The position numbers were made by a program. From assembly GCF_044324785.1 (NCBI RefSeq), contig NZ_CP172128.1: a stretch of DNA of 64,000 bases; one strand, 5' to 3'. Below, piece after piece: positions 24,501 to 30,500 of this stretch (position 1 is its first letter; the number at the start of each line of letters is the position of its first letter). The DNA comes from Escherichia coli (lineage in GTDB: Bacteria > Pseudomonadota > Gammaproteobacteria > Enterobacterales > Enterobacteriaceae).

Positions 24501-27500
24501 CTTGCGGGTGTTCATTACATAACGGTACAGGGCATCATTCACCGGTGTCATTAACTGGCAGCACGCGTCAACCCAGTTGGAGAGTAAGGCCCGGCTCAGT
24601 TAGACACCCTGGCGGGCAAAGATTTCACTCTGACGATACAGTGGCAGATGTTCGCAGTATTTTCCCGTTAACACGCGGGCAAGTAATCCGGGGCCCGCGA
24701 TACCACGCTCTATCGGGCGGGACGGCGCCGGTGCTTCAACAATACAGTCACATTTTGTACAGGCTTTTTTTACCCGTTCTGTGCGGATCACTTTCAGGGC
24801 ACTGCTCACCAGTTCCAGCTGTTCAGCGCTGACTTCCCCCAGATAATCCAGCTCACCGCCACACTCCGGGCAACAGCTTTCTTCTGGCTCCAGGCGGTGT
24901 ATTTCACGGGGAAGGTGTGCCGGTAACGGACGACGATGGCGCGACTGTCGCAACTGGCGGGGAACCTGAGGATCGTCTTCCCGCCCACTGTAACGATCGC
25001 TGTCCTGCTCACGTTGTTTCAGCAGAGCCTCAGCCAGTTCAACTTCACGACGCAGTTTTTCAGAACGGGTACCGAACAGCATCCGGCGCAGTTTTTCTAT
25101 CTGAGCCCGCAGATGTTCTATTTCCCGTTCATCTTCTTCGATCTTTTCTTCGGCACGTGTCAGTGCAGAGCGCAGGAAGGCTTCCGTCTCTTCAACCAGA
25201 CTCAGTTGCTGGTCTTTCTGACGGAGGGCTTCAGCCTGCTCAGAGAGCAACCTTTCCAGCTCTGCGATGCGAATGAGGTATTTCTGACTCATGACCGTTT
25301 TTATAATGCGGTCAGGAGTTTTTTACAACATTGTCAGTGAGTTACGGCTGGATGTTTTTGGCTGACGCCAGTCCAGCTTATCGAGGAGCATTGCCAGTTG
25401 CGAGCGGGTAATGGATACCTTGCCGTCACGTACCGCAGGCCAGATAAACTGGCCTTCCTCCAGGCGTTTGGTGAACAGGCACAGACCATCAGCATCAGCC
25501 CAAAGAATTTTGACGGTGTCACCCCGTCGGCCACGGAAGATAAACAGGTGACCGGAGAAGGGATTATCATTCAGCACATGTTGTACCTGTTCTCCCAGTC
25601 CGTTGAAGGATTTACGCATATCGGTAACGCCGGCAACGAGCCAGATACGGGTACCTGATGGGAGTGAGATCATCTTCCCCTCCCGGTCAGTTCACGGATC
25701 AACACTGTGAGCAGCTCTGGCGATGGATTTTCCAGCGTCATGTTACCGTGACGGAATTCCACCTTGCAGGAACTGGCACTGACTCTGGTCTGAGTGGAAG
25801 TGGATAAAGACGGCGCAATGGCCGCCACAGGTTCTTTCTGCTCATCCGGCGTTATTTCTACAGGTAATAATTCAACGCCAGTGTCAGAAGAGGTCGTTAC
25901 CGGAAGACGCCGCGAAACACGCCCTTCGTTCTGCCAGAGCCTGAGCCATTTGAAAATAACATTATCATTGACGCCATTTTCACGTGCAATCTGTGCAACA
26001 CAAGCTCCAGGTTGTGATGCCAGTTCCACCATACGAAGTTTGAATTCATTCGAATAGTTTTTACGAGGTTCTTTTCGCCAGTCCTGTAATTCCATACTTA
26101 GATGTCCGTCTATATCAGATGGGCGTCTAAGTTACCAATTCTCGTCTGATGGCTACATACGGCGGTCAGTTTACGCTTACGTATTTCTGTGTGATTACAG
26201 TAAATAATAAAAATGTAATAAGGTGGAAACACGCTGTCAGCGTAGTGAATTTACTGGCGGATAAGTGATTTTATTAATATGTACAACAATACATTTTCTT
26301 TTTTCATTTCGTATAAATACAGGGGGGATATAAAAGAAACGGAGACTGCAGAGACAGAGATGCAGTTGTTTTCCCCGTTTCCTTAATGAAAATTCACTCA
26401 GGGGTGTGGCCGGATAATTATGCCGGGCGCTTAATTCCCTGTTGAACTGAAGTATTCCGGCAATATTCAGCAGTACGCCGGCCAGCCTGCCGTCATCATC
26501 CCGCAGGAAACGACGGAGTAGCCGGTGCTCTTCTTTGGCGGTACTGTCAGTTTTTCCGGCCAGGTGTGCGTGGATGAGTGTTATAAGCGTCTCCGGGGAT
26601 ATGCGGTGAATTTTCATCATTCTTCTCCTGATTTTGTCGGGGGCACACCCGGATAGATAAACTGCTGGCGGCGAATGAAAAAATCACAGAAGGGCATATC
26701 CGGTAATTCCGGGAGACCGGATACGGCAATATCCATCCATGAGAGATAGTTATCGACGCTCACTGTGACGGTGATGCTGTTATGGGTACGGGATCTTTCA
26801 TGAATTTCTGCAGCCAGAAAGAGCAGCCAGCCGCCGTTAAATGCCGGGTGGCGGAGAATGAACCGGGCAATCTCTTTTTCAACTCCATCAGGCGGAATAT
26901 CGTCCGTCAGTGTCCGGATAATAAAGTGCCGGAATGCATCAGCGGTGAACTGATATGCGGCAGAGAGGGTATTCATTTTTGTTCCTCTGTAAGTTGAGAG
27001 GGCCGGCAGAACGTCATCGGTACCGGTGTGGGAGGGCTGCATCACCAGACGAACTCCCTGTCAGGAAACGAATCCGGCAGCAGAATGAGCGCCACCCCGT
27101 CCATTTTCTCCCGCAGTGTTTTACGCTGTGCCGGCGGCCAGCGGCGCAGTGCATCAGCAAAATCCGCCGGACGCCAGGTGCGAAATTTCTCCTCAACGGC
27201 CAGGCGGTTCTGTACCAGGGCATTCAGTACGGCCCGTCCCTGTCTGACTCGCTTACGCTCATCGCTGAAAATTTCCTTCAGTGCCCGTGCATTGAGAGCA
27301 ACCACCGAGGCCGGATGCAAATCAGGGAGCCAGACCATCACCCCCTGTGCGGCAGCGTAGCCGTTCAGGCAGTGCCAGGCGTGGCAGAAGGCACAGAGAT
27401 GAAAGGGCGGGCCTTCCGGCTGCAGCAGTTCACTTTCATTTTCGCTGAGTGCATCTGTTGTGACGATTTGTGACTTTTCCACATGACGCAGGGCCAGTCG

Positions 27501-30500
27501 CCTGGCCGACAGGCGGGCCTGTGCCAGGGACCGCTCCGCATCCTGCAGGGTTCGGGTGTGTTTCTTTTTTTCGTCAGCGTTTTCCGGTACCGGATGTTTT
27601 TTCAGGCGCATCACCCGGGTGAGGTTTTTTTCCAGCAGGACGACCGTATCCCGGCAGGTGTCAGCCATCTGCTGTAATGGCCATGAATCCTCCAGAATGA
27701 AGCGGTGAGTGACGGTCCTGCGACAGCAGGGACAGCGTCCGGGTGTTGAGAGCACGGGTGGTGGCAGCAGGGATTCACCGCTGAATACCGTGTCCGGTTG
27801 CGGGAGCGGGAAAAGCCAGCGTTCCCGGACCGGGGCGATGAGTGGCGGTGTTTTGTTCATACGTTTTTCTCTCTGTATACAGGGTGACGGCAGCCAGAAT
27901 CAGTGCTGCGATGGCGGTGGAATAACACTCTGTAAACACAAACTCCTGATTATCCCGGTTGTCGCGGGCAATCACGTTGCCGTGCTCTGTTCTGAGCAGG
28001 GTGAAAGGGGGCAGCTCACAGGACATGGTCTGGTCCTCTTCATTGTGTGAAGACGGCACCGGGAAACCGGTGCCGTTGTGGATTAACTGATGGAGACCGG
28101 AGAAAGACCGAGCGTTTTCTGTCCACTGCTCATCATTTCCGGTACGACGGCAAGACAGGCACCGACCACAATGGACAGTATGCAGGCCACCCCTGCTCCG
28201 GGTTTTTTACCGATTTGTTTGAGGCCAAGCAGGCCGGCAATAAAGAGCACCAGGCCAATAACCTGAGCGATGGTCACAAATGAACTGCTGGAGCCTTTTG
28301 CACCATCGCCAACGGTTTTGATCATATCGAATAGGGTGTTTGCCATCGCTGTGTGGGGCAGCAGTATCACGGGAAGCAGAAGTAACAGGCGTATCAGCCG
28401 GTCACGGCAGGCCACCAGGCATAACTGAACATAAATAAATGCAGCGCACAGACGCGCCGCCATGGCACGGAATCGTGACATATAGTCTCCTTAACTAACA
28501 GACTGAATGACTGAAAAAGGATGTGGATCAGAAGGCGAGACCAAGACTCGCCAGAGAGGCATCGATGACGCGATCGATAAAAACCAGCAGAACGCCGGCA
28601 ACAAACTTGACGTTTCCTTTGCTGATGGACTCACTGCTGCTCAGGGCGGTATGCCCGTCCAGCAGGGATTTACGCCAGATGGAAATGCCGTTCATGGCAA
28701 ACCCCACTCCGGCCAGTTTTACCAGTGAGAGCATGGCATTGGCGGCACCGGCAGCGGCACCAAAGGTGGTTGGTTGTACATAAGCGATAGGGCCGAAGGA
28801 ATCAGCCCTGAATCCCATCTGGGTACCCCCGGCATTGATGAAGGATGGCAGGGCGACCAGCATGCCGCAGATGACGATACCGGCGATAAATTTTCCCGGT
28901 CCCATACTGTGACGCCCTTCTGCCCGGGCGCGCATCAGATGACCAATCAGGCCGATAATCCCCAGCAGCTCTCCCCAGGTGAAGAGAAACTCCATGCCTG
29001 CACTGAATATACCGCTGGCAAAGTTCTCTATGGCTGTCAGGGCATCAATGCTCATCATCGTAATGTACCGGCAGAGGTGATGACTGAGCGGCTGGACGGC
29101 TCAATCCGGGTGATGGTGATATTCCCCAGCCTGTCACCTTCCCGTACTGCCCAGGCGCTACCCTGCCAGCGGATCCAGGCCATTCCTTTTTCCACCGACA
29201 TGATTTGCATGCCCTGCAGGCGGGAAGGCGGGGTTTTCGTTGACTGGCCGTTATTCCCGGTCGGGATTTGCAGTGGTCCCTGCATCTGCAGGGCATGCAC
29301 CTGCTTACGGGTTTCATCAAGCAACTGACGGGTTTCCTGTGCCCAGGCCTCATCTTTCCGTATGGTGTCGCCAAGGGTTGTGATGCTCTCTTTCAGCATG
29401 GTCAGGGTACGTCGGATTTCCTCATCCCGCCTGTCCAGCTCTGCTTTCAGGTCACGGGCAAGCTGCTGCATGTCTGCCTGTGGGGAGACAGGAGGCGCGG
29501 ACATGGTGTTTCCGCTCCCGGTCTCCGTCATGGGCATGGGCTCTGCCCAGCTTTCGGCTGCGGGCGGTGTGACAGCGAAGCCTGCATCTGCAGGGGGTTC
29601 TGAGGGTGTCCGCAGAAACTTGTACCAGACTGCGGCCAGGATGATGAGGACACAGCCGGCCCAGACTGGCAGGCTGTATCCCATATACTGGCGTTTCAGG
29701 AAGGATTTGCCGGATGCCGGTGTCGTTGTTTCGCCAAAACTGCCGGGATCTTCATGTTCGTTTTTCATGGATGACTTTCCTGTTGTATTCCGTAACGTTG
29801 CCGCATTTCGTTCTGTTTACGCATGACAGCTGCCTGGATCCTGTCAGACGCCTGACGCTCTGCTTCTTCCTGGGTGAGCGGGCGTCCGGAGGGCGGTGGC
29901 ACAGAAGGGGCAGTGCCGGAGGAGGGGGGACTGATATCGTTGCTCATGACCGGCTCAACAAACAGAATGGAGACAACCTCTCCGCGTGACACTGTCACCT
30001 GCCGGTAAGGTTCGCTCTCCGCCTGGCGGGTCAGCAACTGACTGCCCCGTTCGGCCATGCCGCCTGCAATGACGCCAGCCAGCGCCTCGCCATCAGGCAT
30101 TCCCACCCTGCCGGTAATGCTGCCGTAGTTTCCCTGAATGACCTGTGTGTTGGCGTCTTTGTAAAGACTCCCGACATTGCCCACCCCACCGAGCACAGAC
30201 GGCAGAACGATATGCTTAAACCAGCGGTGGTTCACGTCGCTGGCCACGGATGACATGCCGGTATGTTCATTCAGGGCATATGCATTGACTTTCAGAAACA
30301 TGCCCCGCCACATCATCCGGTCAAAGTGGATATCCATTCCCTTGCCGGCGAGTCTGGCGTCCTGGCTGTAGAGGACGGCCCCGGCCCATGGGCCGGCAGG
30401 TACGGAGGCCACCACGCGGGAGACAGCATTGTCAGAGTCCACTTCCGTATCAATGAAGGCAGGTACGCGGGTCAGTGCCGGTATCAGCTGTATCCCTGTA

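What the first reader, a model, noticed from the sequence alone, without database searches (positions are those of the whole stretch)
26237..28059. Four uncharacterised tra-operon ORFs immediately upstream of the IS66 insertion, one Cys-rich
ORFs of 94, 272, 142 and 127 aa occupy the traS/traT position. The 272-aa product has CPCC and HLCAFCHAWHC motifs suggestive of metal binding. The 142-aa product is small and acidic, reminiscent in size of type IVB adaptor proteins; this is speculation. Start codons are ambiguous because of overlaps.
Basis: inference. Interest (0 to 1): 0.3.

Follow-up and report, generated by a model that had tools for sequence, protein, structure and literature searches.

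The report
traS, DotN-like traT, unknown gene pair

Summary
The four minus-strand ORFs and both Cys motifs are exactly where reported, 56 bp from a 2,532-bp IS66-family element. The window is 100% identical to IncK2/Z plasmid pLH10-b-1-A.

- **ORF94 and ORF272:** these are orthologues of R64 TraS and TraT, at 56% and 60% identity.
- **TraT:** it is a homologue of Legionella DotN/IcmJ, shown through a two-step profile chain (E 1e-30, then 1.5e-16). Its CxxC…CxxC cysteines align with DotN's, so the metal-binding inference holds.
- **ORF142 and ORF127:** ORF142 is really 119 aa and ORF127 is 126 aa. They are absent from R64.
  - They form a translationally coupled pair of distant paralogues under purifying selection (dN/dS 0.24–0.39).
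  - The pair is conserved down to 30–37% identity in several Enterobacterales I-type plasmid lineages, always between traR and traU and close to the DotN homologue.

The pair's function is unknown. My best guess, at low confidence, is a dispensable cytoplasmic accessory of the coupling complex. About 225 plasmids have deleted it. Overall this is an ordinary tra segment with one modest lead.

The parts
28083..28481 (-). traR (DUF6750; DotP/IcmD position), upstream neighbour
   Evidence: Pfam DUF6750 at E 1.5e-27. RefSeq annotation of the identical plasmid.
27775..28059 (-). traS. The maximal ORF is 94 aa from GTG 28059; the likely start is ATG 28026 (83 aa). The conserved core is about 57 aa (28026-27856). 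The last 26 codons are a read-through over traT.
   Evidence: 56% identity to R64 TraS over the core. The stop codon TAA present in plasmid p1_020022 is CAA here, a T>C change that is silent in traT.
27042..27860 (-). traT, a DotN/IcmJ homologue (272 aa)
   Evidence: 60% identity to R64 TraT. Mixed family profile vs PDB DotN 5x1h/5x42/6sz9/7ovb gives E 6e-16. Long-form vs short-form profile comparison gives hhalign probability 99.9%, E 1e-30. Short forms vs DotN give E 1.5e-16.
27723..27734 (-). First cysteine pair, CPCC (C43, C45, C46). C43 and C46 form the conserved CxxC.
   Evidence: C43 and C46 are invariant in the TraT alignment A7. They align to DotN CQFC.
27369..27395 (-). Second cysteine motif, CAFCHAWHC (C156, C159, C164). 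C156 and C159 form the conserved CxxC.
   Evidence: C156 and C159 are invariant. They align to DotN CCFCAQC.
26617..27045 (-). First gene of the pair. The maximal ORF is 142 aa; the likely product is 119 aa from ATG 26976. It is acidic (pI 5.3) with an alpha+beta fold.
   Evidence: Homologues are 116-129 aa and align from M24. GAGGA ribosome-binding site. AF2 pLDDT 84.8, pTM 0.78. dN/dS 0.24-0.25.
26237..26620 (-). Second gene of the pair, 126/127 aa, basic (pI 10.4), a distant paralogue of the first. Its start overlaps the stop of the first gene (ATGA).
   Evidence: Conserved partner in every lineage examined. AF2 pLDDT 81, pTM 0.76. hhalign against the first family gives E 3.2e-5. dN/dS 0.34-0.39 for the two divergent comparisons; 0.48 against near-identical L002, from 5 substitutions.
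23649..26180 (-). IS66-family element (tnpA, tnpB, split tnpC) inserted in the 175-bp spacer between the pair and traU. The 8-bp target duplications are at 26181-26188 and 23641-23648.
   Evidence: Terminal GTAAGCG repeats and AGAAATAC duplication read from the sequence. Annotation of the identical plasmid. tnpC appears as two ORFs of 230 and 290 aa.
20477..23521 (-). traU (DotO/IcmB position), the downstream neighbour now separated from the operon by the IS
   Evidence: Coordinates taken from the 1014-aa CDS WP_021552467.1 annotated at the traU position in the identical plasmid. The maximal ORF runs 20477-23533. R64 gene order.
5759..8032 (-). trbC, the DotL-type coupling protein (757 aa) with a roughly 145-aa C-terminal tail; context for the coupling-complex hypothesis
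   Evidence: phmmer vs PDB 6sz9 DotL gives E 7e-62, aligning residues 108-611. 76% identity to R64 TrbC, with the extreme C-terminus unrelated.

Best explanation
This is the traR-to-traU stretch of the I-type (type IVB) conjugation operon of an IncK2/Z plasmid.

Shown:
- ORF94 is traS, a small conserved protein whose stop codon has been lost here.
- ORF272 is traT, the plasmid counterpart of Legionella DotN/IcmJ.
- TraT's two CxxC pairs (C43/C46 and C156/C159) correspond to DotN's cysteine pairs. A segment of about 100 residues is inserted between them.
- ORF142 (really 119 aa) and ORF127 (126 aa) are a translationally coupled pair of distant paralogues with no signal peptide and no membrane segment.
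- The pair is absent from R64 but conserved in several Enterobacterales I-type plasmid lineages, always between traR and traU and close to the DotN homologue.
- The pair is not homologous to IcmS, IcmW or LvgA.

Inferred:
- By homology with DotN, TraT binds zinc and docks on the C-terminal tail of the coupling ATPase TrbC (DotL), beside TrbA (DotM).
- The pair is co-transcribed with the tra operon and forms a cytoplasmic heterodimer.
- That heterodimer acts as a dispensable, lineage-specific accessory of the coupling complex or of substrate handling. This would be analogous in logic, not ancestry, to IcmSW or DotY/DotZ.
- I put roughly 0.3 on this last step taken alone.
For: - **Plasmid identity and gene names:** 100% identical to pLH10-b-1-A, typed IncK2/Z and MPF_I, where TraS and TraT are annotated.
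- **Orthology to R64:** TraS and TraT are orthologous to the R64 proteins.
- **Synteny:** traM-N-O-P-Q-R-(S)-T-U matches the Legionella order icmL-K-E-G-C-D-J-B. The Legionella order is from my own knowledge; the plasmid order is.
- **DotN homology:**
- **DotN's role:** DotN sits in the DotL-DotM-DotN coupling complex, binds DotL residues 590-659, and is the docking site for the lineage-specific DotZ and DotY (PMC9302130, PMC7280309).
- **IncL analogue:** Orf38 of pOXA-48, at the same position, was independently called DotN-like (bioRxiv 10.1101/2025.01.23.634512).
- **The pair consists of real genes:** 30-37% identity across lineages with invariant motifs such as GGWLL and DFFIRRQQFI. dN/dS is 0.24-0.39 for the divergent comparisons. 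Both genes are intact in nearly all of about 40 loci.
- **Paralogy:** hhalign E 3.2e-5 in register with matching secondary structure, plus reciprocal sub-threshold HMM cross-hits.
- **Conserved position:** the pair lies between traR and traU in every locus examined. It is downstream of traT in three lineages. In the others it is upstream of a 182-235-aa DotN-like gene, with one or two unrelated genes in between in most of those loci.
- **Restricted context:** every homologue whose context was examined lies in a tra operon.
- **No membrane segment:** maximum KD19 is 1.33 or less.
- **TrbC tail:** TrbC keeps a roughly 145-aa C-terminal tail beyond the DotL-aligned ATPase, and its end differs from R64's.
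Against: - No direct evidence links the pair to the coupling complex.
- R64 lacks the pair. IncL/M plasmids are reported to carry only orf38 in that interval (PMC6112013), although I did not search them. Both groups are transfer-proficient.
- About 225 PLSDB plasmids keep only a 116-bp remnant of the first gene, and occasional frameshifts or fusions occur.
- The traR-traU interval is a variable spot that also holds unrelated small ORFs and a PLD nuclease gene.
- The long-form TraT profile alone does not reach DotN in PDB, so the link is transitive.
- Zinc binding and TrbC binding are inferred, not tested.
Confidence: 0.5

Rival explanations
1. The pair is an autonomous cargo module lodged in a permissive spot of the tra operon, and it works independently of the secretion machine. 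It could be a toxin-antitoxin-like system, a defence or anti-defence system, or an exclusion function. It may act together with the convergent 180-aa gene found next to it in many related plasmids.
For: - Acidic upstream and basic downstream gene with an ATGA overlap.
- Patchy presence and frequent deletion.
- The interval is variable and also holds a PLD nuclease. A Phd/PIN module sits in the same operon in L006, further downstream between traU and traW.
- A conserved convergent ~180-aa gene overlaps the 3' end of the second gene in about half of the related loci.
- Synonymous divergence of the pair (0.118) is higher than that of the adjacent traT (0.035) against pDW54_2, which suggests recombinational exchange.
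Against: - No hit to any toxin, antitoxin or defence family in Pfam, NCBIfam, PADLOC or PHROGs.
- The two proteins are paralogues of each other, which is atypical for toxin-antitoxin pairs.
- Every locus examined lies in an I-type tra operon, and the position is the same down to 30-37% identity. That pattern looks like long vertical association rather than mobile cargo.
Confidence: 0.3
2. The pair regulates expression or activity of the transfer genes, like Orf35 and Orf36 of the IncM plasmid pCTX-M3. Those genes are dispensable for transfer but modulate tra transcription and mobilisation efficiency.
For: There is precedent for small, dispensable, lineage-specific ORFs without known motifs inside I-type tra operons acting as regulators (PMC6112013). 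The second protein is very basic, with pI 10.4. The pair is dispensable in nature.
Against: No DNA-binding domain or fold was detected. There is no sequence relation to Orf35 or Orf36 that I could see; pCTX-M3 was reported to have only orf38 in this interval (PMC6112013). There are no expression data.
Confidence: 0.12
3. One reading: the 142-aa protein, with its neighbour, is an IcmS/IcmW-family type IVB adaptor.
For: The proteins are small, the cluster is type IVB, one member is acidic, and a two-protein pairing is plausible. TrbC has a C-terminal tail comparable in length to the IcmSW-binding tail of DotL (PMC9302130).
Confidence: 0.04

Closest known systems
R64 (IncI1) TraS and TraT
   Same: Same operon position (traR-traS-traT-traU), same strand and same sizes. 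Identity is 56% over the TraS core and 60% for TraT. In R64, traT is essential for transfer and traS is dispensable (PMC6112013, PMC4288162).
   Different: TraS here is extended by 26 residues because its stop codon is lost. In R64, traT is followed directly by traU after about 90 bp, whereas here two extra genes and an IS element intervene.
[quoted passage not shown]
   Same: Homologous from the second Cys pair to the C-terminus, and both CxxC pairs align. The gene sits between the DotP/IcmD-like and DotO/IcmB-like genes.
   Different: TraT is 272 aa against DotN's 208 aa. It carries an insertion of about 100 residues between the two Cys pairs and a longer N-terminus. Homology is detectable only through intermediate short plasmid forms.
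Orf38 of IncL/M plasmids pOXA-48 and pCTX-M3
   Different: Those plasmids are reported to have no traS, and orf38 alone replaces traST in the traR-traU interval (PMC6112013). I did not compare the sequences directly.
IcmS-IcmW adaptor heterodimer of the Dot/Icm system
   Same: Two small cytoplasmic proteins encoded in a type IVB cluster, non-essential, and thought to act as a pair (PMC9302130).
   Different: No sequence or fold similarity. One member here is strongly basic. Binding to the coupling protein tail is untested.
DotY and DotZ, lineage-specific accessory subunits that dock on DotN
   Same: This is a precedent for non-conserved accessory proteins attached to DotN whose loss only reduces secretion (PMC7280309, PMC9302130).
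   Different: DotZ is a 294-aa helical protein, and dotY and dotZ (lpg0294, lpg1549) have locus tags far apart from each other. The pair here is alpha+beta, about 120 aa each, encoded next to the DotN homologue, and shows no similarity.

Membership tests
IncI-type TraS/TraT (orthology to R64) | Sequence orthology and the same position between traR and traU | tested here: met
   56% (TraS core) and 60% (TraT) identity to the R64 proteins, with identical gene order. RefSeq names both in the identical plasmid.
DotN/IcmJ | Detectable sequence homology to Legionella DotN | tested here: met
   The mixed profile A3 hits 5x1h at E 6e-16. The long-form profile A7 against the short-form profile A8 gives hhalign probability 99.9%, E 1e-30. 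A8 against DotN gives E 1.5e-16. The long-form profile alone gives no hit.
DotN/IcmJ | Two CxxC pairs forming the metal site | tested here: met
   C43, C46, C156 and C159 are invariant in the TraT family and align with DotN's CxxC pairs. This is tested at sequence level only.
DotN/IcmJ | Binds zinc and the C-terminal tail of the DotL-type coupling protein | not testable with these tools
IcmS/IcmW adaptors | Sequence similarity to IcmS or IcmW | tested here: not met
   Profiles A4 and A5 searched against all PDB chain sequences, which include IcmS and IcmW. A4 gives 0 hits at E up to 10. A5 gives only unrelated hits at E 0.85 or worse. Pfam and NCBIfam give nothing.
IcmS/IcmW adaptors | Shared fold | tested here: not met
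IcmS/IcmW adaptors | Both partners are small acidic proteins | tested here: not met
   pI is 5.3 for the 119-aa protein but 10.4 for the 126-aa protein.
IcmS/IcmW adaptors | Heterodimer that binds the DotL C-terminal tail and recruits substrates | not testable with these tools
   No complex prediction or experiment was possible.
Type II toxin-antitoxin module | Homology to a known toxin or antitoxin family, and occurrence in varied genomic contexts | tested here: not met
   No Pfam, NCBIfam, PADLOC or PHROGs hit. All examined loci lie inside I-type tra operons. The two-gene overlapping layout alone is met.
IS66 family insertion sequence (flanking element) | tnpA-tnpB-tnpC genes, GTAAGCG terminal repeats and an 8-bp target duplication | tested here: met
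   Annotation of the identical plasmid. Termini and the AGAAATAC duplication were read from the sequence. tnpC is split into 230-aa and 290-aa ORFs.

The most novel reading that the evidence does not exclude
The 119-aa and 126-aa paralogues form a heterodimeric adaptor or chaperone of a conjugative type IVB coupling complex, evolved independently of IcmSW. It would dock on TraT (DotN) or on the TrbC tail. It would promote transfer of a specific protein substrate into recipient cells. One candidate substrate is the convergently encoded, uncharacterised ~180-aa protein that accompanies the pair in many related plasmids.
Probability: 0.15. Interest if true: 0.65.

Novelty: new variant of a known kind. 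Interest (0 to 1): 0.3.

Why it matters
IncI, IncK and IncB/O plasmids are major carriers of ESBL and AmpC resistance genes. Their type IVB transfer machine is also the closest conjugative relative of the Legionella Dot/Icm system.

Placing TraT as the DotN subunit gives its essential role a structural rationale: a zinc-finger protein docking on the coupling ATPase tail.

The paralogous pair beside it is a compact, testable candidate for a lineage-specific accessory of a conjugative coupling complex. Nothing is known about such accessories outside Legionella. If the pair instead proves to be unrelated cargo, the finding is simply two more hypothetical plasmid proteins. Either way the segment is not exceptional.

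Tried and rejected
- **Single-sequence searches.** Pfam, NCBIfam, PADLOC and PHROGs gave nothing significant for any of the four proteins. TraT alone against PDB sequences gave nothing.
- **Long-form TraT profile against PDB.** It did not reach DotN directly, so I built a two-step chain through the short forms.
- **Genome-representative scan for the pair.** It found no confirmed relative. The metagenome scan added mostly near-identical E. coli plasmid copies and one divergent locus.
- **tblastn with a Pantoea-type member against PLSDB.** It found only the known E. coli and Salmonella plasmids.
- **Promoter and terminator scan.** Not above background.
- **The ~180-aa convergent gene of related plasmids.** No hit in Pfam, NCBIfam, PADLOC or PDB sequences.
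- **Literature.** I could not retrieve the two primary papers on the DotL-DotN-IcmSW crystal structures (Kwak 2017, Xu 2017), nor a paper stating that R64 TraT equals DotN. I recall reviews listing that equivalence, but I have not verified it.
- **Chance ORFs.** Rejected from conservation and dN/dS.
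Full report
**Observation**

All four ORFs exist on the minus strand at the stated coordinates:

| ORF | Coordinates | Length |
|---|---|---|
| ORF94 | 28059-27775 | 94 aa |
| ORF272 | 27860-27042 | 272 aa |
| ORF142 | 27045-26617 | 142 aa |
| ORF127 | 26620-26237 | 127 aa |

- The 272-aa product carries CPCC (C43, C45, C46) and HLCAFCHAWHC (C156, C159, C164).
- An IS66-family element lies 56 bp downstream of the last ORF. It spans 23649-26180 (2,532 bp), has GTAAGCG termini, and is flanked by an 8-bp AGAAATAC target duplication.

**Source and gene names**

- The stretch 26100-28500 is 100% identical to E. coli plasmid pLH10-b-1-A (IncK2/Z, MPF_I).
- It is 98-99% identical to many other IncK2/Z plasmids. 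In total 1,873 PLSDB records match some part of it.
- In those records the order is traO-traP-traQ-traR(DUF6750)-TraS-TraT-hypothetical-hypothetical-traU.
- R64, the IncI1 reference, has traR-traS-traT and then traU after about 90 bp. The last two ORFs therefore have no R64 counterpart.

**TraS**

- The conserved core is about 57-62 aa and is 56% identical to R64 TraS.
- The likely start is ATG 28026, which has a GAGGA ribosome-binding site.
- The stop codon TAA seen in plasmid p1_020022 is CAA in the window. This T>C change is silent in the overlapping traT codon 2.
- As a result TraS reads 26 further codons into traT.
- traS is reported as dispensable in R64 but scored as required in a transposon screen of pESBL. 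Its function is unknown (PMC6112013, PMC4288162).

**TraT is a DotN homologue**

- TraT is 60% identical to R64 TraT.
- A search of 1.8 billion representative proteins found 55 relatives. The distant ones are 170-330 aa (mostly about 170-250) and match residues 150-270.
- A profile of 23 of these hits Legionella IcmJ/DotN (5x1h, 5x42, 6sz9, 7ovb) at E 6e-16 over chain residues 35-202. Both CxxC pairs are aligned.
- That profile mixes long and short forms, so I split it:
  - The long IncI-type forms alone do not reach DotN.
  - The long forms match the short plasmid forms at hhalign probability 99.9%, E 1e-30.
  - The short forms hit DotN at E 1.5e-16.
- C43, C46, C156 and C159 are invariant.
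- Relative to DotN and the short forms, TraT has an insertion of about 100 residues between the Cys pairs.
- DotN is a subunit of the DotL-DotM-DotN coupling complex and binds DotL residues 590-659 (PMC9302130, PMC7280309).
- The window's TrbC aligns to DotL residues 100-601 at E 7e-62 and has a further tail of about 145 residues.
- A 2025 preprint reached the same DotN assignment for Orf38 of pOXA-48, which occupies the traS/traT position, and modelled it with zinc (bioRxiv 10.1101/2025.01.23.634512).
The protein is not uncharacterised in kind.

**The pair: gene status and distribution**

- Homologues of ORF142 are 116-129 aa and align from its M24. That ATG (26976) has a GAGGA site, and the 23 upstream codons are not conserved. 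The product is therefore 119 aa.
- ORF127 starts at the ATGATG that overlaps the upstream stop, giving 126 or 127 aa.
- Both families are small and confined to Enterobacterales plasmids: E. coli, Shigella, Salmonella, Serratia, Enterobacter and a Pantoea-like symbiont.
- The two genes are adjacent in every lineage, at 30-37% identity for the most distant members.
- dN/dS is 0.24-0.25 for the first gene and 0.34-0.39 for the second in the two divergent comparisons, against 0.13-0.25 for TraT.
- The pair always lies between traR and traU:
  - It is downstream of traT in the window lineage and in L008 and L010.
  - In L006, L011-L014 and L044 it is upstream of a 182-235-aa DotN-like gene. One or two unrelated genes usually lie between them, such as a PLD nuclease gene in L006.
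- It is intact in nearly all of about 40 loci.
- About 225 PLSDB plasmids retain only a 116-bp remnant of the first gene, and a few copies are frameshifted or fused. The pair is therefore dispensable.

**The pair: structure and relatives**

| Protein | AF2 pLDDT | pTM | Secondary-structure order |
|---|---|---|---|
| 119 aa | 84.8 | 0.78 | β-α-α-α-β-β-α-β |
| 126 aa | 81.0 | 0.76 | β-α-α-α-β-β-β |

- The topology is the same in both. hhalign between the two families gives E 3.2e-5 in register, and each family's HMM picks the other family as its next-best hits. They are distant paralogues.
- Neither protein has a membrane segment.
- Their pI values are 5.3 and 10.4.
- Family profiles find nothing in PDB sequences.
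- Foldseek against PDB gives best E-values of 0.25 and 0.043 with TM-scores below 0.35.
- IcmS, IcmW, LvgA, DotY and DotZ do not appear in any of these lists. The IcmS/IcmW idea fails as a homology claim.

**Mechanism**

TraT:
- I infer by homology that it binds zinc through its four cysteines.
- I also infer that it docks on the TrbC tail beside TrbA.

The pair:
- The evidence is contextual only: strict and ancient linkage to the tra operon near the DotN gene, translational coupling, paralogy that suggests a heterodimer, and a cytoplasmic location.
- DotN is known to dock lineage-specific accessory subunits, DotZ and DotY (PMC7280309).
- I therefore favour a dispensable accessory of the coupling complex or of substrate handling, at about 0.3.
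- The main rival, also at about 0.3, is autonomous cargo in a variable interval.
- A regulator role like Orf35/Orf36 of pCTX-M3 (PMC6112013) is a third option.

**Verdict**

This is an ordinary tra segment whose Cys-rich protein is explained. It also carries a modestly interesting, uncharacterised paralogous pair that is not IcmSW.

Noticed in passing
window 23649-26180 (target duplications 26181-26188 and 23641-23648): The IS66-family element sits in the 175-bp spacer between the pair and traU, in the same orientation as the tra operon. Its tnpC is split into 230-aa and 290-aa ORFs. It may be polar on traU through traY, so this plasmid's transfer proficiency is uncertain despite its 'conjugative' typing.
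   Followed up: partly
L005:1484-2029 (+), L010:6755-7291 (-), L011:4743-5279 (-), and many metagenome loci; absent from the window: A conserved gene of about 180 aa (42-44% identity across lineages; motifs HATTxxRG, AVHWGNK, CHSCRT) lies convergent to the second gene of the pair and overlaps its 3' end. It is present in about half of the related loci. It has no hit in Pfam, NCBIfam, PADLOC or PDB sequences. It may form a three-gene module with the pair.
   Followed up: partly
window 27853-27860 (traS stop / traT start): A single T>C change (TAA to CAA) removes the traS stop codon while remaining silent in traT codon 2. This extends TraS by 26 residues over traT. The change is shared with pDW54_2; the Shigella plasmid pSH292-2 carries the same TraS extension.
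   Followed up: yes
L004 (pSH292-2) 2501-2616, and about 225 other PLSDB plasmids: Many I-complex plasmids, including Shigella sonnei, E. coli and a few Klebsiella records, keep only a 116-bp remnant of the 5' part of the 119-aa gene between traT and traU. This shows an ancestral deletion of the pair in a successful lineage.
   Followed up: partly
window 26237-27860 compared with L005: Synonymous divergence against pDW54_2 jumps from 0.035 in traT to 0.118-0.119 in the two downstream genes. This suggests a recombination boundary near the traT stop.
   Followed up: no
window 5759-8032 (trbC): The coupling protein TrbC is 76% identical to R64 TrbC, but the last ~40 residues of its C-terminal tail are unrelated. 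In DotL the corresponding tail binds DotN and IcmSW. I did not test whether tail type correlates with presence of the pair.
   Followed up: no
L006 6801-7337 and 11196-11881: In one divergent E. coli plasmid lineage the traR-traU interval holds the pair directly after traR, followed by a PLD-family nuclease gene and then a 235-aa DotN-like gene. A Phd/PIN toxin-antitoxin pair sits between traU and traW. This illustrates how much cargo these operons tolerate.
   Followed up: partly
window 26000-26500: G+C drops to 41-47% across the 3' end of the 126-aa gene and the spacer, against 55-60% for the surrounding tra genes. The IS66 target lies in this A+T-rich stretch.
   Followed up: no
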